Made by a program: the position numbers and the translations under genes
Part shown: in pieces, positions 1 through 63,574 of the stretch
Numbering within the stretch: the first letter of the stretch is position 1
Layout: each line of letters opens with the position of its first letter
Source: the human T2T-CHM13v2.0 reference genome, Homo sapiens
Reading direction: 5' to 3' (one strand)
Assembly (NCBI RefSeq): GCF_009914755.1
Contig: NC_060934.1
Length of the DNA stretch: 64,000 nt
Notes under the pieces: generated by a model
What the model saw: the letters and a program-made list of their open reading frames with translations, nothing else
Databases searched by the model: none
Told to the model about the DNA's origin: nothing

Positions 1-2913
1 AAATGCTGGGTTTCCTAACCCTCCCATCGGGTAATAGGAAAATTCACTCAAAAAACGGGAGACTCCTTCTGGGAAACTCTGCCAATCCACTTTTGAGGGA
101 TGTTCACATCTATTTAGGACACCTTCTGTGAGTGATAAAATGTGGCCACTACTTGGTACAATCGTGTCTTTGCTGTCCACGGGGACAGCGGGAATCCCCT
201 GCGCTGCATCGCAGGGGGCACCTGTGTATCTGTCCGCTAGGGTGGGATCAACACCAACCAGAAAGAAATTGCCACTGGGAGTGTCACGTGACTCTATTTT
301 CTCAAAACTCACCTTAGCATTTCCCATAAAACCCATTTCACCATTTAAAGTCGACTGTGTAAGAGTGGACTTGGCGTTTCCTTCTTTGAAATGGTGTGCA
401 CGTTCACTCGTCCCACATGGACCCAGGCAGTCAGTAATTCTGGGGTCAATACTATCTTTCTCCAAATAAAGTCTCTCTTCCTCTTCTTTACATGTTAGTT
501 TTGGTTTACTCAACCCTGATGTATTATTACCAAAGATACCAGAAGCTTCTTCAATTGATTCAGAGGAAATTCCCTTCCATTTTGGGCTTTTACCACCACT
601 AACAGAATTCTCTACTATTTCTGACTTCTGTATAACTGGATTAACACTTGGACTGAAATGTGGTAACACACTAAGAACATTATATTTGCAGTCGTATACT
701 CGGTGTGTTTCATAACTTTTTTCTATTTGATTAGTTTCAAAATCAGCGTTCTCTGTTGCACTAGAACTAACACAGGAGAGTACATCCTGACTTGGCACTG
801 CCTCATGTCTTTGTGTACCTGTTTCCCACTCATAGGTTGTTTTAGAATCTGACTTGACAGTCTCTATGTCATCTTCACTTGTCTCACTATACTTTGCTTG
901 CAGTGATTCTTTTTCACTACCTTCTAACCTTTGAGGGTCACTCAGCTGGTCTCGTGACACACTGACTGAACTCTTCACACATATTTCACCCTCTGTTTTG
1001 TCACCTGGGCTTGTTTCCCTCTCTTCTTCCTCTGTGCAGGTGAAAATAAATGCGGAGGAAACACAGTTACTGTGAAGAGATCTGGAGTGACTGGGAGACT
1101 TGCCATCGGGGGGCACTCCTTGTGCCATGCTAAGCTTTAGGCCATCTGTCCTCTGCACCGTCCCCTGCGTGTCCACCACACGCTCCACACAAGTTTGGTC
1201 ACAGGTCTGTGTTGCAGCCTCATCTGCTTGACACCAAGATTTTGACTCAAAAGCCCTTACACCATGACCCTCAGCCTTCCAAACGCCAATTCTGTCCTCT
1301 TCTTGGTAAAAGGCACTATTTTCAGATTGCAGAGACACCTCACCTCTGTCTGGCAGCAGGGGACTTCTGGCCTCCAGGCTGCAGTCCCCTCTGCGCTGTG
1401 CCTTCCTGACTTGTCTGGGGACAGGTTCCGGCTCCCAGCAGTCATCAAGCTGGCTTGGGGCTGCTTCTCTTGAATTAGCGTGACCTGAGAGACACCCACT
1501 TCCAAATCTTACTGCAGTGATAGGCCTCTTAGGACTTAAATCAATTCTATCTAGACCAACAGGAAGGATACTATCTGCTTTGTTAACGTCCAAGTAGAAA
1601 TCATCGTTGTCTCTTAGTGGTGTGATAGAGTTATTTTCTCTCTCCTTTTTAGAATGTAAACTCTGGTCGACAACAACTGTTACCACCTCCGGGTCATCAC
1701 TCCCTGCAACACATGCAGTGTCAGTACAAAAGCTACCAGGTGAATGTGCAGTGTCAGTACGGAAGCCACCAGGTGGATGATCCATCTCACTTCCTACTCC
1801 TGAGTTACAGCTCTCACTTTCTCCCAGGACACACGCATGACTTAGTGAGTCACTGTCCATGTTGTTATTTAATTCAGGGAGTAGGTCAATACCATGTAGT
1901 GCACTACTTTCTGCGTAATTTTTAGGGAATTCAGTGCAAGCTTCTGCCTGTAAAGCCTCCATCTGCACGTTATCAGTGTTTGCTTCACAAGGTGCATGGC
2001 TGAACGCCACAGGCTCAGGGCAAGGCTTGGCTTTCCCACTGCATTCCCCTGTCCTTTCACCTGGACCCAGCGTGTCCCAAGGCGAGAGTTCTTCCTGCCG
2101 TGGCTCTGGCTCGCCCGCCCCTGACATGGCACGCGAGGCTGAAGGCACTGAAGAGCAACACTCTCCTCTTGCAGCTACTGTGTCTACCCAGGTGCCCAGC
2201 TCCTCTGCCACGCTTGGGCAGGCAGAGTCGGCAACACAAATGCTGTGAAACTTGCACTCTCCTGAATCCTGACATTGCTGATCATCAATACCAACAGGGT
2301 TTCCATCTTTCCTCTCCCTATCGGATAGGTCTAAAGACTTACTCTCATCACCACTGCTGAGGTGAACGCTGACCACCATTTCTTTCTCTACTAAAGAGTT
2401 TTTACAAGTAGCTGGGTAACAGTGCAGATGGCCACTCACAAAGGCTTCCTCCTGCAGGCCTCGGTCAGAAGGCACCAGCACACATGAGAAAAGCTCCTCA
2501 TCTTCCCAACAACCTTGTCGGCTGCCGTTACCCACACACAGTAGATCACAGACCCCCTCAGAATTCTGCTCATTAACAACAATATCTGAATTCTTGTCAT
2601 TCTCACCCAAGTTTTCATACCTTGTTGAGAATGTATATATAAAAGAGGAAAGAGGGTTCAATGACTGCTTGGGTCTATGACCCTGTTTGTGCCCAGACCC
2701 TGCGAAAATCCTTGTCCGCGCGCTAACGCCAGCTACACTGCTGGCTCCACTGCCAGTACGGTGAACCTCCTCACCTTTGACGGTATCAAATAATGAAGAC
2801 AAAGTTTTACTTATCTTGTTTTCTGGTTCCTTTTCCTCCACAGATTTTTGTAACAGGCCAGTTTTTTCACTGTCATTGTCACTACTTAGTTCTCTGCTGA
2901 AGCAGCAGCCCAT
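1..2913 (-). CDS. Uninterrupted ORF of >=971 codons, open at the window edge, in LARP4B intron 3 on the same strand; candidate giant alternative first coding exon starting MGCCFSRELSSDNDSEKTGLLQKSVEEKEPENK and reading ...WQSFPEGVSRFLSEFSYYPMGGLGNPAF at the edge
   Basis: I checked every in-frame triplet from 2913 to 1 by hand and found no stop. Kozak context is aaacATGG, there is an in-frame upstream TAG at 2986-2988 and an acceptor ggcttctcctcag| at 2994. No transposon remnants are visible in 1-3000. The product is Ser/Cys/Glu/Asp-rich. Confidence 0.85.
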   Translation of the reverse strand, partial: MGCCFSRELSSDNDSEKTGLLQKSVEEKEPENKISKTLSSLFDTVKGEEVHRTGSGASSVAGVSARTRIFAGSGHKQGHRPKQSLNPLSSFIYTFSTRYENLGENDKNSDIVVNEQNSEGVCDLLCVGNGSRQGCWEDEELFSCVLVPSDRGLQEEAFVSGHLHCYPATCKNSLVEKEMVVSVHLSSGDESKSLDLSDRERKDGNPVGIDDQQCQDSGECKFHSICVADSACPSVAEELGTWVDTVAARGECCSSVPSASRAMSGAGEPEPRQEELSPWDTLGPGERTGECSGKAKPCPEPVAFSHAPCEANTDNVQMEALQAEACTEFPKNYAESSALHGIDLLPELNNNMDSDSLSHACVLGESESCNSGVGSEMDHPPGGFRTDTAHSPGSFCTDTACVAGSDDPEVVTVVVDQSLHSKKERENNSITPLRDNDDFYLDVNKADSILPVGLDRIDLSPKRPITAVRFGSGCLSGHANSREAAPSQLDDCWEPEPVPRQVRKAQRRGDCSLEARSPLLPDRGEVSLQSENSAFYQEEDRIGVWKAEGHGVRAFESKSWCQADEAATQTCDQTCVERVVDTQGTVQRTDGLKLSMAQGVPPDGKSPSHSRSLHSNCVSSAFIFTCTEEEERETSPGDKTEGEICVKSSVSVSRDQLSDPQRLEGSEKESLQAKYSETSEDDIETVKSDSKTTYEWETGTQRHEAVPSQDVLSCVSSSATENADFETNQIEKSYETHRVYDCKYNVLSVLPHFSPSVNPVIQKSEIVENSVSGGKSPKWKGISSESIEEASGIFGNNTSGLSKPKLTCKEEEERLYLEKDSIDPRITDCLGPCGTSERAHHFKEGNAKSTLTQSTLNGEMGFMGNAKVSFEKIESRDTPSGNFFLVGVDPTLADRYTGAPCDAAQGIPAVPVDSKDTIVPSSGHILSLTEGVLNRCEHPSKVDWQSFPEGVSRFLSEFSYYPMGGLGNPAF

Positions 2914-3010
2914 GTTTGAGAGCTCACAAGCACACGACAGGCGTGCTGGTCCCAAGCCTCCACAGACGCACCTCACAGTAACTTGCTATAATTTCTGAGG
3001 AGAAGCCAAC
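2914..3010 (-). other. Putative 3' splice site and 81-nt ATG-free leader of the giant exon (exon starts at 2994)
   Basis: Minus strand reads ...tttttggtctctgggtgttggcttctcctcAG|AAATTATAG...ctctcaaacATG; the AG is at 2996-2995. Confidence 0.6.
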
Positions 3011-3718
3011 ACCCAGAGACCAAAAATAACCCCTTGCACAGCGGTCACATGTTCCTGCCACTCAAACCCAAATCCTAATGACAACAGAGCCCGACTGACA
3101 GCCAGCATACTCCGTGTGCCCAATTCCAAACAGGACCAGGATCCAAAAGCTCAGAACAGCAGCAAGAATGCTGCGCTGTATTTTTTCTTACTCTCATAAA
3201 CTCAATAAAACATAACTTAAAATATTATCCCAGCCAGAAAGATTTCAGGCTTCTGGTTTTTCTACAGTGTTCCAGTATTTCCCAAATTATATTTCATGGG
3301 ATGGTGGTAACTAAATAAAATAGTTCATAAATTCCCCCAAAGGAAAACAGTATCAGAATTTTGTTCCGTAAAATATATAGCTACTCACAGTTGTATCTAA
3401 TTTTCTAGCTTTACGAAATGATGTCTGAAATAAATAGCAATTTAAAAAGAGACGAAAAAATCAAAGGAGAGCAAAAAAATAAATAGCAATAAAAAATAGT
3501 ATCTGTAGGTATCAAGAAATTATTACTAATTGTGTCAGGTGTGAAAATGGAATGATGTCAGTTAGAGATGCATGCTGAAGTATCTGGGATAAAGTGACAC
3601 ATTATCTACAATTTGCTTTAAAATGCCCTAGCAAATATAGTAAATATATACACACATATATAAAAGTTAAAACAGTCATGTGCATACAGGGAGGAAAAGA
3701 TTTAAAGACAGTAGTCCA

Positions 3719-12397: not shown

Positions 12398-13012
12398 GGG
12401 AAACCATATTCTTACAGTCTAATAGAGATCACTTTTTTGTGTTCTTTGGCTAACCCTGTAAATAGTTACTAGCTCAGTAAGCTTTTTGGAGAGGGCAGGA
12501 AGCTGTCTAATAAATACAACTAAATAGTACCAGTGGATAAATGCAAATCTGCTCCTGAATTATTCATGTATTTCTTTGGGTATCTCTATTGCACGTCTCC
12601 TCCTACTCAACTCTGACAGAATGGCTAAACTGTAAATAGCCTGGTTCCTCAACCCTGACTGCTAAATGTATTCACTTGCCCATCATAACAACTGGCTGAG
12701 CACTGCCACCTAATCACTAAACCAATGCAAACTCCTGGTCAACTATGAAGCATGTAACTCTCCACACCTTTAGGTGCACTATGAACAATGCTAATTAGAA
12801 AACATTCATAGCAATGCCTACAATAGGTTTCTAAAGATGTCTGAATATTATGTTGGACTGAAAGTCAACCACGGAGAGAACAGGAACTTGTTGAAGCAAA
12901 CAAACTCCCTTAAAGATTTATACTCAAGGGATATCTACTTTATGTCTTATATAATTTTCTTCTTAGACTACCAAGCGTCTTATATTTGGATATTTTTAAA
13001 AAATCAATGTGC

Positions 13013-13567
13013 ACCGGGCACGGTGGCTCATGCCTGTAATCCCAGCACTTTGGGAGGCCGAGGCAGGCAGATCACCTGAGGTCACAAGTTCAAGACCAGC
13101 CTGACCGACATGGTGAAACCATGTCTCTACTGAAAACACAAAATTATCCAGGTGTGATGGCGCATGCCTGTAATCCCAGCTACTCGGGAGGCTGAGGCAG
13201 GAGAATCCCTTGAACCCAGGAGGCGGAGGTTGCGGTGACCAAGATCGCACCATTGCACACCAGCCTGGGCAACAAGAGGGAAACTCTGTTTCAAAAAAAT
13301 AATAATAAAAAAATAAATTAAAAATCAATGTAAAACAGAATACATAAAAATTTTACATAAATAATATATTTATAAAATATAATAATTTAGAAGGTGTCTT
13401 TTGTTTTTTTAAAATTCTTCTTTGTTACAAGCTGGCCAGGCATGGTGGCTCACGCCTGTAATCCTAGCCCTTTGGGAGGCCAAGGCGGGAGGATCACTTT
13501 GAGTTCAGAAGCTCGAGACTAGCCTGGGCAACACAGTGAGACCTCGTCTCTATTTGAAAAAAAAAAC
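13013..13567 (+). mobile_element. AluS (13013-13320) and an Alu monomer (13434-13567)
   Basis: Alu consensus. Confidence 0.9.
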
Positions 13568-14228
13568 AATTGGATTAACAATCCAACTCCTCAATTCCTA
13601 CGTGAACTGCTTATAATGGGGGGGGAATAGATGAGATTTATGGTAATTTTTATTTTTTACATAAAATATTTTTACTTTTTAAATTTTATGCAATTTATAA
13701 GATCCTTTGATCAAACTGAATTTCCAGTAGTAGCTCTCTGAAGCACTTTATATATGCATATGCAAATGATGAAAGGTAGGATTTAAAAACCAATGAATTC
13801 TACTTCCTTATTCTTTCATTAATCACAGCTAAAATGTGAAACAAATTTTCTGAGTAAAAGCTTACTATTCAATTTGTGTGGTTTAAGGAACACAAGCTAC
13901 CAAAATGTAAAGCTACTCATCCGCATATAACAGATTATCAATGATACAATAAAAATTTTGTAATATTTGAAAATAAATTAATCTAAATGGTATGCTGCTG
14001 TTGGCAGAACTGCACACAAAACAGACACGCACAGAAGCTAGAAAGGACATACAGTATTGACAGTTACCATACCCAGGGGTTGTGGTGATGAATGGATCCC
14101 CTACCACAACTTTTTGAGAAATATCTACATTTTCTAATTTTTGTTACAATAAACATTTTTCTTAAGGAAGTATCTCTGAGCCTTGACTGTGATTAAAAAA
14201 TCTGTGATTAATCTCAAAATTGAATTAC

Positions 14229-14288
14229 CTGACTCAAAGGTGGGATGGAACTTGTCTGAGAAGTGGTTTGAGATATAGGACCATTCAT
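14229..14288 (-). CDS. LARP4B: LARP4B coding exon 3 (MNGPISQTTSQTSSIPPLSQ), 60 nt, phase 0/0
   Basis: ttttacAG acceptor and CAG|gtaatt donor; the translation matches residues 28-47 of LARP4B as I recall the sequence. Confidence 0.95.
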
Positions 14289-14798
14289 CTGTAAAATTGA
14301 AAACAAAGACAACATCAGTACAATGTTTAAAAAGAAACAACATATTTTCAAACCACAGTAATTAGGCAAAACTAAACCCACCAAGAAATGCACATTTCAC
14401 ATGACAAATTCATGAATTCATAAGATATTCAGAATGTAGGAGGCTTAAAATTTTTAAATTCTGAATGAACATCATAGATAAAGTTCTTTGTAGATTCAAT
14501 GGGGAAAACTAAGAAAAGCTACTTTGCTCAAAGCCACTTTGGAACTTTAAATATTACTGCTTGACATAAAATGTTTAAATGAACAAAAGTAGTCAAAAAA
14601 ATGTATATTAAAATCCTAACTCTTTAAATACATCCTACTATAGTGACTATAATGTTATTAAACTATTTACAAATCACTACATATCCTTGATTTAAAAAAT
14701 AAATGGATTTGAGTATCTAGAGCTATAACAATTTTGTTTTTGTTATCATCTACTACTTATAGTTTCCTCTACTAAGCTACCTCTACATTTTTCAGACT

Positions 14799-15290
14799 GA
14801 TGGGGCTCAGGACTTTCTCCCCAAAAAATATGGCACATTGACATTTGAGGAAACAGCAGAATCAGGCCATGGAAACTAGAAAGAATTCTCCTTGCCCCTT
14901 CTCCCTTGAAGCAGGCCATAAAACACAGCTGACATTCCCCTGAAGACCCTTCCAGAGGGGCCCTGCTCTGTACCAGGAGCAGTAACACACAGGGATGTCA
15001 AGAAAAACCTGAACACAACAGCCTTGCTAAGCTTCTCCAGTTTATTAGCTCTAGGTCACATCCCTTTTGTCCAATCATGCTTCTCCACAACTGTCAACAT
15101 CTGCATTAGACTTCGCAAAAAAAAAATACAGTTTTCCCTGTTTCTTTGGTTCTTCCTTTGTGGAGGCTCCCATGTCACATACAACTTATTACTAAATAAA
15201 TGTGTATGCTTTTCTCTTGTTCATCTGTCTTTTGTTGCAGGGGTCTCAGCCATGATCCTCAGATGGGTAAGAAATCTTTTCTCCCCTACG
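14799..15290 (+). mobile_element. Solo ERV1 LTR (MER39/MER34-like) in intron 2
   Basis: Starts tgatggggctcagga...ccccaaaa.atatggcac; has ataaatgtgtatgcttttctcttgtt and ends tttctcccctac. Confidence 0.65.
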
Positions 15291-15422
15291 AGACTCTAAT
15301 ATCTGTATGCAGATCCTAAGATGTGCCAGTGTTCCTGTTTAGAACTCCTTACTAACTCCAATATAGAGTCCTTTATCAAAAAAAGCAATGGACTCCCCAC
15401 CACCCCATTCGACAGCACCCAC

Positions 15423-15503
15423 CAGATGAGCGCTGTCCTTGCCCTCCTGGACTCTCTGCGTCTGCGGTTCAGCCACAACCTTAGCGTCCTGATCAGAAGT
15501 CAT
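15423..15503 (-). CDS. LARP4B: LARP4B exon 2 coding part (MTSDQDAKVVAEPQTQRVQEGKDSAHL); whole exon is 15423-15542 with 39 nt of 5'UTR
   Basis: ttttacAG acceptor at 15544-15543, ATG at 15503-15501, CTG|gtgggt donor; matches the LARP4B N-terminus and is in frame with exon 3. Confidence 0.95.
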
Positions 15504-61195: not shown

Positions 61196-61470
61196 CTGTC
61201 AGCGCCGCCGCCCCGCCCGACCGGCCGCCCGCGGGCTCCTCGCCTCAACCCCGGGGCCCGGCGGCCGCGCCACACGCGGGGACGGCGAGGAGAGAGACGG
61301 CAGGGAGAGGCGGCGCGGCCGGGCCGGGCCGGGCCGGAGGTAGGGGAGAGGGCGGGCGCGAGCTGGCGGCGGCGGCGGCGGCGGATTCTTCCCCTTTCGG
61401 GCCCGAAAATGTCTCAACCCCGGGACTCCAGATCCCCAACGCTCCTTCCCGTTCGCATGAGAACACACAG
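61196..61470 (-). other. LARP4B: LARP4B non-coding exon 1 (5' end approximate)
   Basis: CAG|gtgagg donor at 61196/61195 inside the CpG island; GC-rich UTR with a (CCG)6 run; ETS sites immediately upstream. Confidence 0.75.
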
Positions 61471-61899
61471 CTCCCACTTCCGGGGCCCTGCGGAAGTCCC
61501 GCCCCCGCGCGGACCCGCGCCTCGCGCCCTGAACTCGCGCACTCACCCGCCGGTCCCGCGGACTGGCGCTCAGCCCCGGGAGAGCCTCACGTCATGGTGT
61601 TGCGGCGCGCTGATTGGGCGCACCCGACGCTCGGCCCGCCCCGCCGCCTTCTTGGCCTCTCCGCGCGTACACCCTGCTCGCGGCCTTGCGATTGGCGCGT
61701 GCGCGCACATCGCCCCGCCCCGCGCACGCCGCACGTCCGCCCCGCCCGCCCCGCCCGCCCCGCCCGCCGTCCCCGGCGCGACCGGAGCGCCTGACGCTGG
61801 GGGGCCGTGTGGGCCCTGACTTCCGGAGGGCTGGGCCCTGGTCCTCCGCCACCGCGTGCGCCCCTTAAAGACCCCTGCCCGCCGCCCAGGACGGATGGC

Positions 61900-62707
61900 G
61901 ACCCCGGCCCTAGCCTGTCCCCAGACCCTGGACCAAGGCCCCGGCCCTGCCCCGAACCCCTCATCCCACCCCCAGGACCCAGGCCCCGACCCTGGCCACC
62001 CAGGACACGCCCTGGCCCTTCCCCGAACTCCCACCCCACAGCTGGGATCAAGGTCCCGGCCCTGCCCGGAACACCTCACCCCACACCCGGGACCCAGGCC
62101 CCGGCCCTGCCCCGAACTCCCACCCCACACCCGGGACCAAGGCCCCGGCCCTGCCCCGAACCCCTCACCCCACCCCCGGGACCAAGGCCCCGGCCCTGCC
62201 CAGAACTCCCACCCCACACCCGGGACCAAGGCCCCGGCCCTGCCCAGAACTCCCACCCCACACCCGGGACCAAGGCCCCGGCCCTGCCCCGAAGGCCCCA
62301 CCGGGGACCCAGGCCCCGGCCCTGCCCCAAACTCCCACCCCACACCCGGGACCAAGGCCCCGGCCCTGCCCCGAACGCCCCACCCGGGACCCAGGCCCCG
62401 GCCCTGCCCCAAACTCCCACCCCACACCCGGGACCAAGGCCCCGGCACTGCCCCGAACGCCCCACCAGGGACCCAGGCCCCAGCCCTGTCCCGAACTCCC
62501 GCCCCACACCTGAGACGAAGGTCCCGGCCCCGAAGTCCCAACCCCACACCCGGGACCAAGGCCCCGGCACTGCCCCGAACCCCCGCCCCACACCCCTAAC
62601 CAAGGCCTCGGCTCAGCCCCGGAATCCCCAACCCCACACCTGGGATCAAGGCCCCGGCCCTTCCCCAAACCCCCAACCCACACCCGGGACCAAAAGGCCC
62701 CGGCCCC
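61900..62707. repeat. GC-rich minisatellite (VNTR), ~44-bp unit CCGGGACCAAGGCCCCGGCCCTGCCCCGAACTCCCACCCCACAC with shorter variants, ~18 copies
   Basis: Direct tandem periodicity is visible; it also produces repetitive Pro/Gly ORFs in several frames. Confidence 0.93.
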
Positions 62708-63574
62708 ACGTTTCCTAGAGGCGCTGGGTTCGGGCCCACGTTGCAACGAGTCAGATGCTCTTGGTAGCTCAGGGAGGTGTTCACACTCCTGCCGTTTCCG
62801 TGAGGATGGTGACGACTCCGAACTATAGCAGCATACTCTACCTACCCCTGATCAGTTTATGGAAGAAAAGGAAACCAAACAAAGTATGTTGCGTTTCCCT
62901 TAAGCTTGCTGCCTGATTTTCTGGTTTCTGCTCTGATTGGCTACATATACACATATTATCAATTATTCCAAATTTTAGGTTTGTTCCCCCATTAAAACGG
63001 CTTTTCAGGGATACCATATTCATGGTTAACCGTGTACCTGTGCTTACAACTGCTTTTTTAATTTTGTTTTTTGATACAGGGTCTTGCTCTATGCAGGTCT
63101 GCACTCTGAGCTCAGAGTGCTGTCTCGGGCCCCCAAAATCTGGGATTAGAGATGGGAGCCGGTGTACCCAGCCTGTGCTTATAATTTTTCGTACTCAGCG
63201 TTCAAATGCTGACAATTCTGCATTTTGGAAGAAAGCCTCTCCGGCTTCCCATAGTGGGTAGACTGTTGACATCAAGGTTGGGTGCCTTCTTTGTGAAACC
63301 TTGTTGCATCCTAGCTTTAAGGGAATTTGCAAGTTAAATAATTATATTCATAGTAATGTTTTTAAAGAACATTTAACGACATAAGACACATTTCCTTTAA
63401 TATTAAAAGCATGTACATATTTCAGAAAACTTGCTTACCTGGACAACCTGCCCTGACCAGTAGGCCATAGTGTCCTTGCTTAGGTGCCTGGTTCCTTTAC
63501 CTCCACGGATAACCTACAGGAGCTTACTCTTGGTTCATAACATTGCTAGGGCCATTGATGTGGTATAAGTCTAG

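What the first reader, a model, noticed from the sequence alone, without database searches (positions are those of the whole stretch)
2851..2913. N-terminus has the layout of the LAMTOR1/p18 lysosomal anchor: MGCC lipidation plus acidic dileucine motif
Seen: M-G2-C3-C4-F-S6-R-E-L-S-S-D-N-D-S-E16-K-T-G-L20-L21. Known: G2 with S6 is the N-myristoyltransferase consensus, C3/C4 are typical S-palmitoylation sites, and [DE]xxxL[LI] (EKTGLL) is the AP-adaptor endo-lysosomal sorting signal. LAMTOR1 ([23 protein letters not shown]) has the same layout and spacing and is anchored to late endosomes/lysosomes. Inference: the isoform would tether a PABP- and RACK1-binding mRNA-stabilising protein to lysosomal membranes through a long flexible linker. 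That would be a possible system for mRNA hitchhiking or localized translation on endolysosomes.
Basis: partly seen in the sequence, partly recalled or inferred. Interest (0 to 1): 0.9.

Follow-up and report, generated by a model that had tools for sequence, protein, structure and literature searches.

The report
Lipid-anchored long isoform of LARP4B
A giant, little-noticed alternative first coding exon of the RNA-binding protein gene LARP4B begins with a membrane-anchor and lysosome-sorting signal that has stayed almost unchanged from fish to humans, which suggests that one form of this mRNA-stabilising protein works tethered to a membrane.

Summary
Window 2913-2851 (minus strand) encodes MGCCFSRELSSDNDSEKTGLL.

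The ATG opens a frame far larger than annotated. It runs 1,063 codons without a stop, and 1,044 of them form one exon ending at a consensus donor (TTC|GTAAGT) outside the window. That exon joins in frame to the PAM2w exon of LARP4B.

Three protein searches gave 150 relatives, from teleosts, amphibians, reptiles, birds, monotremes, marsupials and placentals.
- 142 carry MGCCF.
- 136 of those 142 carry [DE]xxxL[LI], almost always with the acidic residue at position 16.
- In 36 diverse vertebrates the only invariant columns of the whole exon are M1 G2 C3 C4 F5 E16.

The rest evolves fast and AlphaFold2 predicts no structure.

The layout matches LAMTOR1 read from the genome, and fission-yeast Lam1, where mutating GCC or LL mislocalises the protein. 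MGCCFSK is also the start of the engineered mT/mG membrane tag.

Lipidation, lysosomal localisation, mRNA tethering and expression in humans are all untested. Only Gnomon models use this start, and they draw a 10-kb leader with 159 upstream ATGs. I found no paper describing the isoform.

The parts
2911..2913 (-). Start codon of the long LARP4B isoform (A at -3, G at +4)
   Evidence: first ATG after the in-frame TAG
2902..2910 (-). Codons G2, C3, C4: predicted N-myristoylation glycine and two S-palmitoylation cysteines
   Evidence: Invariant in 36 vertebrates. 142 of 150 relatives carry MGCCF. Same first 7 residues as the mT/mG tag MGCCFSKT in 131 of the 142 (all with S6; K7 in all 142); human has R7.
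2893..2898 (-). Codons S6 and R7. S6 is the small residue expected by N-myristoyltransferase. R7 is K in all 142 other sequences.
   Evidence: position 6 is S 131, R 5, G 3, C 2, A 1; position 7 is K 142 of 142
2851..2868 (-). E16-K-T-G-L20-L21: acidic dileucine signal [DE]xxxL[LI]
   Evidence: Only such motif in the exon. E16 is invariant and L20 at least 90% conserved in 36 species. Present in 136 of 142 relatives, with the acid at position 16 in 131.
2764..2850 (-). Residues 22-50 (QKSVEEKEPENKISKTLSSLFDTVKGEEV): conserved in amniotes, not in frogs or fish; function unknown
2986..2988 (-). In-frame TAG upstream of the start; it prevents read-in from any upstream exon in this frame
2995..3030 (-). 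Possible 3' splice acceptor (pyrimidine tract ending in CAG at 2997-2995) that would leave an 81-nt ATG-free leader (2994-2914); not used by any annotated human model
   Evidence: inference only
1..2913 (-). In-window part (971 codons) of the giant coding exon. It continues 73 codons beyond the window to the donor TTC|GTAAGT at chr10:867782 (window -218).
   Evidence: No masked repeat of 100 bp or more inside. No Pfam family. Predicted disordered throughout.
2227..2250 (-). Residues 222-229 (FHSICVAD): island conserved from fish to mammals as (E)FYSIC(V/I)(V/I)D followed by acids
   Evidence: F222 S224 I225 C226 D229 at least 90% conserved
205..249 (-). Residues 889-903 (DPTLADRYTGAPCDA): counterpart of the island DP.QVD.YAATPSYEI, which is conserved from fish to monotremes and degenerate in placentals
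   Evidence: D894 at least 90% conserved
1334..1353 (-). Donor (CAGAG|GTGAGG, exon end 1344) of the in-frame 1,491-nt internal intron that the Gnomon models remove from the open frame
14229..15503 (-). Canonical start region: coding exons 15423-15503 and 14229-14288 (47 residues, MTSDQDAK...IPPLSQ), which the giant exon replaces

Best explanation
The ATG at window 2913 opens a giant alternative first coding exon of LARP4B: 3,132 coding bases, 1,044 residues. The exon is at least as old as bony vertebrates.

**What it encodes, in order:**
1. A dual-lipidation signal: Gly2 for myristate, Cys3 and Cys4 for palmitate.
2. At a fixed distance, an acidic dileucine signal (E16xxxL20L21).
3. About 1,000 residues of fast-evolving, predicted-disordered chain carrying a few deeply conserved short motifs.
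4. An in-frame junction, five residues before the PAM2w motif, to the ordinary PABP-binding, La/RRM and C-terminal parts of LARP4B.

**Proposed mechanism (inferred).** N-myristoyltransferase modifies Gly2 during translation. The weakly membrane-bound protein is then palmitoylated and becomes stably anchored on the cytosolic face of a membrane. The dileucine signal is read by adaptor-protein complexes and steers the anchor to late endosomes or lysosomes, as in LAMTOR1, fission-yeast Lam1 and budding-yeast Ego1. The RNA- and PABP-binding end then hangs on a long tether and holds polyadenylated mRNPs near that membrane.

**Shown here:** the sequence, the exon structure, the in-frame junction, the conservation pattern and the predicted disorder.

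**Inferred:** lipidation, the destination membrane, mRNA tethering, and production of the protein in human cells.
For: **Exon anatomy.**
- The exact motif is present.
- The frame is open for 1,063 codons, and the exon ends at TTC|GTAAGT in phase 0.
- The next exon reads VPATKVSELNPNAEVWG.

**Same architecture in other species.** In orthologues the giant exon is followed by ..KVSELNPNA.. and the La module (Pfam PF05383).

**Conservation of the N-terminus.**
- 150 relatives were found, spanning teleosts to primates. 139 start with MGCC and 3 more have MGCCF behind a modelled extension.
- Among those 142: F5 and K7 in all 142, S6 in 131, [DE]xxxL[LI] in 136.
- The only invariant columns among 36 vertebrates are M1 G2 C3 C4 F5 E16.
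- Residues 1-30 are 78% identical to non-primates, against 37% for the whole exon. Against marsupials plus sauropsids the figures are 66% and 25%.

**Comparators.**
- LAMTOR1 has the same layout.
- In S. pombe Lam1, GCC-to-AAA makes the protein cytosolic, and L21L22-to-AA spreads it to the plasma membrane as well as vacuoles (PMC5752196).
- Lipidated Ego1 goes to the plasma membrane without AP-3 (PMC8859911).
- MGCCFSKT directs tdTomato to cell membranes in mT/mG mice.

**Other support.**
- AlphaFold2 gives mean pLDDT 36.9 with no residue at 70 or above.
- The frame is unlikely to stay open by chance: P(no new stop) is 0.045 at 3% substitutions per site, not counting indels.
Against: **Weak human transcript evidence.**
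- No curated transcript exists. Only 5 of 16 mRNA models use this start, and all five are Gnomon.
- Those models draw a 10,066-nt leader with 159 upstream ATGs, 28 in good context.
- Their 5' ends (12979-13021) stop at the edge of what looks like an antisense Alu, as read mapping would.
- There is no CpG island and no TATA-like site within 400 nt upstream of the ATG.

**The human models differ from orthologues.** They splice out 497 codons of the exon.

**Exceptions to the motifs.**
- Position 6 is R in 5 pecoran-ruminant clusters, which fails the usual myristoylation pattern.
- Frogs have L-F or nothing in place of L-L (5 of the 6 exceptions).
- Human has R7 where all 142 others have K.

**Alternative models in some species.** Some skip MGCC or place residues before it: P0015, P0019, P0063, P0044, P0140, P0148.

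**Localisation evidence points elsewhere or nowhere.**
- The identical 7-residue tag alone gives plasma-membrane, not lysosomal, labelling.
- Tagged canonical LARP4B constructs are evenly cytoplasmic.

**Recent loss of function in humans is not excluded.** P(no new stop) is 0.54 at 0.6% substitutions per site.
Confidence: 0.55

Rival explanations
1. The N-terminus is a real lipid anchor, but the destination is the plasma membrane, Golgi or recycling endosomes rather than lysosomes. The dileucine would then serve endocytic cycling or some other binding function.
For: MGCCFSKT on its own directs tdTomato to the cell membrane in mT/mG mice. Frogs keep MGCCFSKE but have L-F or no leucine pair, so the anchor is more constrained than the sorting signal. 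Nothing here measures localisation.
Against: E16 is invariant and L20 at least 90% conserved across 36 vertebrates. The leucines sit at 20-21, against 21-22 in LAMTOR1 and Lam1. In Lam1 the LL pair is what restricts a lipidated protein to the vacuole.
Confidence: 0.25
2. In humans the isoform is not made as a protein. The Gnomon models would be assembled from intronic pre-mRNA reads, and the open frame survives because the exon works in other species or lost its function only recently.
For: Only Gnomon models use it. They have a 10-kb leader with 159 upstream ATGs. The model 5' ends abut an Alu-like repeat. There is no promoter-like composition near the ATG. Human alone has R7. Human is 84% identical to Theropithecus, which is low for a constrained protein. 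P(no new stop) is 0.54 for 0.6% substitutions per site. No named human protein appears among the 150 clusters.
Against: All 1,063 codons are open in the human reference. The donor is a perfect consensus. The anchor motif is intact apart from a conservative K-to-R change. The fast evolution is shared by all lineages and fits a disordered tether. A possible acceptor would give an 81-nt ATG-free leader.
Confidence: 0.15
3. The giant exon is normally an internal exon read from the canonical LARP4B start (MTSDQ...). MGCC would then be internal and never lipidated.
For: The Bombina (P0140) and Prochilodus (P0148) models read MTSDQ... in frame into MGCCFSKE. Bat models P0015 and P0019 enter the exon just after MGCCF. 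The codons ATGGGCTGCTGCTTCAG|C resemble an acceptor.
Against: In human an in-frame TAG lies 24 codons upstream of the ATG. 139 of 150 relatives start at MGCC. Invariance of M1 and G2 makes sense only if the methionine is the initiator.
Confidence: 0.05
4. The resemblance to LAMTOR1 is a chance match of short motifs with no function.
For: Short motifs are common. The chance of a dileucine motif near the N-terminus is about 2% per protein.
Against: The motif residues are the only invariant columns over roughly the whole span of bony vertebrates, while the flanks vary freely.
Confidence: 0.02

Closest known systems
LAMTOR1/p18 N-terminal lysosomal anchor (residues 1-39)
   Same: Starts MGCC, then an aromatic residue, then S. 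An acidic, serine-rich spacer follows, then an acidic dileucine with leucines at 21-22(23), against 20-21 here. The literature describes it as myristoylation plus palmitoylation sites plus an acidic dileucine, sufficient for lysosomal targeting. LAMTOR1 is myristoylated at Gly2.
   Different: No similarity beyond the first ~23 residues. A search of the human genome with the first 60 residues finds only the LARP4B locus. LAMTOR1 is a small Ragulator scaffold; this is a 1,044-residue disordered extension of an RNA-binding protein.
S. pombe Lam1 and S. cerevisiae Ego1 (vacuolar anchors of the Rag/EGO complexes)
   Same: The same three-part design. For Lam1 there is mutational proof: GCC-to-AAA gives a cytosolic protein, and L21L22-to-AA gives vacuole plus plasma membrane. 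Lipidated Ego1 reaches the plasma membrane when AP-3 is missing.
   Different: Fungal TORC1-pathway scaffolds with no RNA-binding module. The similarity is one of design, not of descent, as far as can be tested.
mT/mG membrane tag (MARCKS residues 1-8 with Cys at positions 3 and 4: MGCCFSKT)
   Same: The first seven residues, MGCCFSK, are identical to the natural N-terminus of 131 of the 142 orthologues (those with S6); human has R at position 7. The tag shows that this heptapeptide can carry a protein to cell membranes in vivo.
   Different: It is engineered, has no dileucine signal, and labels the cell (plasma) membrane.
Ustilago maydis Upa1 (endosomal mRNA-transport adaptor)
   Same: A membrane-binding module plus a PAM2 motif that binds the MLLE domain of poly(A)-binding protein, linking mRNPs to endosomes. 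The long LARP4B isoform would combine a membrane anchor with PAM2w, whose complex with PABPC1 MLLE has been solved.
   Different: Upa1 binds membranes through a FYVE domain and PI3P, not through lipidation. It has no La module. There is no sequence relationship.
Canonical LARP4B (738 residues)
   Same: Same gene and strand. All residues from VPATKVSELNPNAEVWG onwards are shared. It is known as a PABP- and RACK1-associated factor that promotes translation and mRNA stability.
   Different: The canonical 47-residue N-terminus is replaced by 1,044 residues. Tagged canonical constructs are evenly cytoplasmic.
Annexin A11 as a lysosome-RNA granule tether (recalled, not seen in any call)
   Same: An animal example of RNA granules riding on lysosomes through a protein that binds both.
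   Different: Membrane binding is reversible and depends on calcium and phosphoinositides, not on a covalent lipid anchor.

Membership tests
LAMTOR1/Lam1/Ego1-type lipid anchor with acidic dileucine (a design class, not a homology family) | Glycine directly after the initiator methionine, with residues compatible with N-myristoyltransferase (pattern G-{EDRKHPFYW}-x(2)-[STAGCN]-{P}, recalled from PROSITE) | tested here: met
   Human GCCFSR fits. 137 of 142 relatives fit; the 5 failures all have R at position 6 (pecoran ruminants).
LAMTOR1/Lam1/Ego1-type lipid anchor with acidic dileucine (a design class, not a homology family) | Cysteine(s) next to Gly2 for palmitoylation | tested here: met
   C3 and C4 are invariant in 36 vertebrates.
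LAMTOR1/Lam1/Ego1-type lipid anchor with acidic dileucine (a design class, not a homology family) | [DE]xxxL[LI] about 20 residues from the N-terminus | tested here: met
   E16xxxL20L21 in human. 136 of 142 relatives have it. LAMTOR1 has L21-L22 and Lam1 has L21-L22. Exceptions: 5 frogs and one deleted bird model.
LAMTOR1/Lam1/Ego1-type lipid anchor with acidic dileucine (a design class, not a homology family) | Actual myristoylation and palmitoylation, and lysosomal or vacuolar localisation that depends on G, CC and LL | not testable with these tools
   Needs cell biology. Supplementary tables of myristoylome, palmitoylome and Lyso-IP papers were closed.
LAMTOR1 protein family (Ragulator subunit) | Sequence similarity beyond the anchor | tested here: not met
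   A genome search with residues 1-60 and one with all 1,044 residues find only the LARP4B locus. No Pfam family. It is not a LAMTOR1 homologue.
LARP4B isoform | Exon inside the LARP4B gene on the same strand, joined in frame to the PAM2w exon | tested here: met
   Orthologues carry the giant exon followed by ..KVSELNPNA.. and Pfam PF05383/PF26088.
LARP4B isoform | Curated or experimental transcript and protein evidence in human | tested here: not met
   Only Gnomon models. No paper found. Reads and proteomes were not available.
Endosome/lysosome mRNA-tethering adaptors (Upa1 type) | A membrane-binding module and a PABP-binding PAM2 motif in one polypeptide | tested here: inconclusive
   PAM2w is retained and its MLLE complex is solved. 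The membrane module is predicted only.
Endosome/lysosome mRNA-tethering adaptors (Upa1 type) | Co-transport of mRNA with the organelle | not testable with these tools
   Needs live imaging.

The most novel reading that the evidence does not exclude
Vertebrates keep a covalently lipid-anchored, lysosome-sorted form of a La-module protein. LARP4B-long would be a dedicated tether that holds PABP-bound, polyadenylated mRNAs (and, through the RACK1-binding region, ribosomes) on the cytosolic face of late endosomes and lysosomes, at the end of a 1,000-residue flexible chain. That would make it an animal counterpart of the fungal Upa1 system for mRNA hitchhiking or local translation. The fish-to-human island (E)FYSIC(V/I)(V/I)D, which has the form of an LC3-interacting region (recalled motif), might add a link to autophagy.
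Probability: 0.3. Interest if true: 0.9.

Novelty: new variant of a known kind. Interest (0 to 1): 0.72.

Why it matters
LARP4B has been studied only as a soluble 738-residue cytoplasmic factor. A form more than twice that size, with a membrane anchor conserved for roughly the age of bony vertebrates, would mean that part of its biology has been missed. Antibodies, cDNAs and knock-downs have targeted or expressed only the short form, or both forms without distinction.

How mRNAs are attached to endosomes and lysosomes in animal cells is an open question with few known adaptors. A directly lipidated PABP-binding protein would be a simple, testable candidate. The decisive experiments are ordinary: a 30-residue GFP fusion with three mutants, click-chemistry lipid labelling, and isoform-specific long reads.

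It is also a reminder that a 3-kb open exon can sit inside a well-known human gene without a curated transcript.

Tried and rejected
**Family and structure searches that found nothing useful.**
- Pfam on the in-window 971 residues found no family. On the 92-residue tail piece, which includes intron read-through, it found only a sub-threshold match: PF22906, E 0.1, 12.7 bits against a cut-off of 27.
- The PDB sequence search gave 0 matches at E up to 1.
- The ESM Atlas gave a best score of 0.76, to AMER3. The tool states that shuffled proteins reach 0.8 a third of the time, so I rejected this as evidence.
- I did not run fold search, because the model had no confident residue.

**Paralogue searches.**
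- The first 60 residues and the whole exon match only their own locus in the human genome. One search ran with a stricter first look, so weak matches may be missing.
- The LARP4 locus (80 kb) has no stop-free frame longer than 171 codons and no MGCC start.

**Stand-alone gene idea.** Ensembl-type 'uncharacterized' proteins of 1,026-1,149 residues in monkeys, turtles, crocodile and birds look like a separate gene. I rejected this as the main reading. Their tails (VSMFS.., VSIF..) are read-through of the conserved donor GTAAGTAT, and they differ after that.

**Promoter next to the ATG.** There is no CpG island (observed/expected 0.2-0.6, against 0.95 at the canonical promoter) and no TATA-like hexamer within 400 nt.

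**Literature searches.**
- LARP4B with myristoylation: 5 papers, all incidental by title and abstract.
- LARP4B with palmitoyl: 17 papers, 12 listed, none about LARP4B lipidation.
- LARP4B with lysosome: 34 papers, 20 listed, none with LARP4B in the title.
- Peptide strings MGCCFS, GCCFSK, GCCFSR: 11 papers. Nine concern the mT/mG-type tag and two a fish hormone subunit; none concern LARP4B.
- In the listing, the four LARP4B/LARP4-focused papers (PMC7356810, PMC4478348, PMC10963253, bioRxiv 2024.11.01.621267) contain the word 'isoform' 0 times.
- Passages of the LARP evolution review treat only residues 1-71 of the canonical protein.
- Searches were badly framed: LARP4B was not required as a term. 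They say nothing.
- Supplementary tables were closed, so myristoylome, palmitoylome, Lyso-IP and proteogenomic lists could hold peptides of this exon without my seeing them.

**Not possible here.** dN/dS could not be computed, because no orthologous DNA is reachable.

**Rows left out of counts.**
- One search used 25 of the 38 hits. I left out P0006, P0010, P0015, P0017, P0019, P0020, P0022, P0024, P0028, P0029, P0030, P0037 and P0038 as partial, duplicate-species or alternative models.
- Alignment A2 used human plus 35 of the 150 relatives, picked for taxonomic spread.

Full report
**1. The observation.** The minus strand of window 2913-2851 reads ATG GGC TGC TGC TTC AGC AGA GAA ..., which translates to MGCCFSRELSSDNDSEKTGLL. 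The ATG has A at -3 and G at +4. Upstream in the same frame there is a TAG at 2988-2986, with 24 sense codons and no ATG between it and the start. This is therefore the first start the frame can use. RefSeq uses it in 5 of 16 LARP4B mRNA models: XM_054365320, 321, 322, 331 and 335, all Gnomon. The two curated records (NM_015155.3 and NM_001351277.2) start at window 15503 instead.

**2. What is really there.**
- *The frame is much larger than annotated.* The Gnomon models end the coding part at 1344. The frame does not stop there. It runs through the whole low end of the window and 278 bases beyond, 1,063 codons in all.
- *The internal intron is in frame.* The intron the models remove (1343 to -147) has GT..AG ends, is 1,491 bases long and is in frame. 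The small exon that follows it (-148 to -218) is simply the end of the same open frame.
- *Exon boundaries.* The exon ends at a consensus donor, GGACAGTTC|GTAAGTATG, in phase 0 after 1,044 codons. The next exon, shared with the canonical mRNA, reads VPATKVSELNPNAEVWG..., the PAM2w motif.
- *Predicted products.* The giant exon replaces the 47 canonical N-terminal residues, MTSDQDAKVVAEPQTQRVQEGKDSAHL plus MNGPISQTTSQTSSIPPLSQ. A full-exon product would have 1,044 + 691 = 1,735 residues. The Gnomon product has 547 + 691 = 1,238.
- *No repeats, no paralogue.* No masked repeat of 100 bases or more lies in the exon. For comparison, the 80-kb locus of the paralogue LARP4 has no stop-free frame longer than 171 codons on either strand.

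**3. Relatives.**
- Three word-index searches were run: the human exon (38 hits), a profile of eight stand-alone versions (120 hits) and the frog Ascaphus exon (68 hits). Together they gave 150 distinct protein clusters.
- They come from primates, rodents, bats, a xenarthran, horse, camel, ruminants, pig relatives, carnivores, pangolins, marsupials, both monotremes, many birds, turtles, a crocodile, a skink, a cobra, five frogs, axolotl and four teleosts.
- Most are named 'la-related protein 4B isoform X..' and carry the La-module Pfam families after the exon. Some are Ensembl 'uncharacterized' single-exon proteins whose tails are read-through of the donor.
- Between 4,370 and 6,481 candidates without a named source were left out of each search by the tool. 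No named human protein is among the hits.

**4. Conservation.**
- *Overall the exon evolves fast.* Identity to human is 84% in Theropithecus, 41-50% in rodents, 33-35% in ruminants and fox, 28% in opossum and 24% in a turtle.
- *The N-terminus is the exception.* Against 20 non-primate orthologues, residues 1-30 are 78% identical, compared with 37% for the exon. Against 6 marsupials and sauropsids the figures are 66% and 25%. This is the best of 34 windows (25 of 38 hits used).
- *Start of the relatives.* Of the 150 relatives, 139 start with MGCC. Three have MGCCF behind a modelled extension (Saccopteryx, Bombina, Prochilodus). Eight lack it; these are truncated or alternative models.
- *Positions 5-7 among the 142.* F5 and K7 are universal. 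Position 6 is S 131, R 5, G 3, C 2, A 1.
- *The dileucine among the 142.* [DE]xxxL[LI] is present in 136, with the acid at position 16 in 131. The six exceptions are five frogs (EKTGLF, EKTSLF, ERTGLF, or none) and one pigeon model with a deletion.
- *Distant lineages keep it.* Teleosts read MGCCFSKELNP..ER(T/S)SLLQ and axolotl EKTNLI.
- *Invariant columns.* In an alignment of human plus 35 taxonomically spread relatives, the invariant columns of the entire exon are M1 G2 C3 C4 F5 E16. K7, E8 and L20 are at least 90% conserved.
- *The spacer varies freely.* Between the two motifs it reads LSSDNDS, LTTSKNN, LSNSTNE or LNPNLVS.

**5. The rest of the exon.**
- AlphaFold2, run with the 36-row alignment, gives mean pLDDT 36.9, no residue at 70 or above, and no helix or strand. 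With a shallow alignment this is a prediction, not proof, but it agrees with the composition: 64% polar or disorder-promoting residues.
- A few short islands are conserved from fish to mammals:
  - (E)FYSIC(V/I)(V/I)D followed by acids (human 222-229);
  - DP.QVD.YAATPSYEI (human 889-903, eroded in placentals);
  - GYLW (W988);
  - YPYQLL..(I/V)W(G/E/D)WQ just before the donor.
- Pfam, the PDB and the ESM Atlas give nothing usable.

**6. Comparison with known anchors.**
- *LAMTOR1.* Read from this genome, it is [14 protein letters not shown] (exon 1) followed by [13 protein letters not shown] (exon 2). The first four residues are the same, then an aromatic residue, then S6 and E8. An acid- and serine-rich spacer follows, and the leucines come one position later than here. 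[quoted passage not shown] A review passage states that NMT1 myristoylates LAMTOR1 at Gly2.
- *Fission-yeast Lam1.* GCC-to-AAA disperses the protein in the cytoplasm. L21L22-to-AA spreads it to plasma and vacuolar membranes. The authors align Lam1, LAMTOR1 and Ego1 on exactly these features (PMC5752196, passages).
- *Budding-yeast Ego1.* Lipidated Ego1 appears at the plasma membrane without AP-3 (PMC8859911, passages).
- *The mT/mG tag.* The widely used mT/mG reporter is tdTomato behind MGCCFSKT, which is MARCKS 1-8 with two cysteines introduced. It is described as myristoylated and palmitoylated and directed to the cell membrane (bioRxiv 10.1101/2020.09.18.303743, passages). Nature's LARP4B start in 131 of the 142 relatives, MGCCFSK, is the same heptapeptide.
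- *What this means.* This is the nearest thing to experimental evidence available here that the start can be lipidated. It also shows that the lipids alone lead to the plasma membrane, so any lysosomal address must come from the dileucine.

**7. Mechanism.**
- *Shown:* the anatomy and the selective constraint.
- *Inferred from the named precedents:* co-translational myristoylation, palmitoylation, adaptor-mediated sorting to late endosomes or lysosomes, and a long tether ending in PAM2w, the La module, the RRM and the C-terminal region.
- *Background from the literature:* LARP4B is described as PABP- and RACK1-associated, as promoting translation, and as lengthening poly(A) tails and stabilising mRNA when over-expressed (passages).
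- *Working precedent:* a membrane module joined to a PAM2 motif exists in Ustilago Upa1. There a FYVE domain plus PAM2 links Pab1-bound mRNPs to moving endosomes (PMC9249222, passages).

**8. Evidence against, and what remains open.**
- *Human expression is the weak point.* The Gnomon first exon is drawn as 11.6 kb. Its leader of 10,066 bases holds 159 ATGs, 28 in good context.
- The modelled 5' ends (12979-13021) sit at the edge of a repeat that looks like an antisense Alu. That is where uniquely mapped intronic reads would stop.
- The 400 bases upstream of the ATG have no CpG island or TATA-like site.
- A good-looking acceptor (pyrimidine tract ending in CAG at 2997-2995) would give an 81-base ATG-free leader, but no model uses it.
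- If canonical exon 3 were joined there, the canonical frame would stop after two codons (inference).
- Pecoran ruminants have R at position 6, frogs lack the second leucine, and human alone has R7.
- Human-monkey identity of 84% is about what little or no constraint on the residues would give (recalled divergence). Substitutions alone would leave the frame open with P = 0.54 over a human-chimpanzee-scale distance, but only 0.045 at 3% per site. Long-term selection for an open frame is therefore clear, while a recent human loss is not excluded.
- Tagged canonical LARP4B constructs are evenly cytoplasmic.

**9. Novelty.**
- Automated pipelines have predicted the long isoform in well over a hundred species. 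My searches found no paper that mentions it, its lipidation or a membrane form of LARP4B. Searches were uninformative.
- Supplementary tables were closed, and subscription journals are mostly outside the library.
- I file it as a new variant of a known kind: the LAMTOR1/Lam1/Ego1 anchor design placed on an RNA-binding protein. It is not a LAMTOR1 homologue.

**10. Verdict.**
The anchor layout and its conservation are well supported. The lysosome address, the mRNA tethering and human expression are untested.
- Interest 0.72.

Noticed in passing
window 2227-2250 (human residues 222-229): Island (E)FYSIC(V/I)(V/I)D followed by acidic residues, conserved from teleosts to mammals (human FHSICVAD). 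It has the form of an LC3-interacting region, [FWY]xx[LIV] flanked by acids; that motif is recalled, not tested.
   Followed up: partly
L004:782-900 (chr10:867782-867900, just outside the window) and window 205-249: Two further fish-to-mammal islands: YPYQLL..(I/V)W(G/E/D)WQ immediately before the donor, and DP.QVD.YAATPSYEI, which is eroded in placentals. Their function is unknown. The Upa2 paper notes a GWW motif needed for endosome binding in a fungus, which may be coincidence.
   Followed up: partly
window 2896-2913: The codons for MGCCFS (ATGGGCTGCTGCTTCAG|C) look like a 3' splice acceptor. Bat models P0015 and P0019 enter the exon exactly there (..|SKELSGDND), which would give a long isoform without the lipid anchor.
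   Followed up: partly
window 1343 to -147: The Gnomon models remove an in-frame 1,491-base intron (GT..AG) from inside the open exon, deleting 497 codons. Orthologues of other species mostly keep the whole exon.
   Followed up: partly
window 12979-13575: The 5' ends of all Gnomon models that use the giant exon (12979-13021) stop at the edge of a masked repeat that reads like two antisense Alu elements (identified by eye, from recall). This suggests the 5' end is a mapping boundary and not a transcription start.
   Followed up: partly
window 2893-2895: Human has arginine at position 7 (AGA) where all 142 other MGCC sequences have lysine. I did not check whether this is fixed or specific to this reference.
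   Followed up: no
window 3108-2986: A 40-codon upstream open frame (MLAVSRALLSLGF...) in the same frame as MGCC ends at the TAG 24 codons before the start. It would lie in the leader only if transcription starts further upstream than the possible acceptor.
   Followed up: no
window 61780-62883: LOC124902363, 'keratinocyte proline-rich protein-like', is a Gnomon coding model on the plus strand inside the GC-rich LARP4B promoter region (GC 0.79). It may be a spurious frame in a CpG island. I did not examine it.
   Followed up: no
window 61196-61473: Canonical LARP4B exon 1 (non-coding) holds one ATG, 15 bases from its annotated 5' end, that opens a short upstream frame.
   Followed up: no
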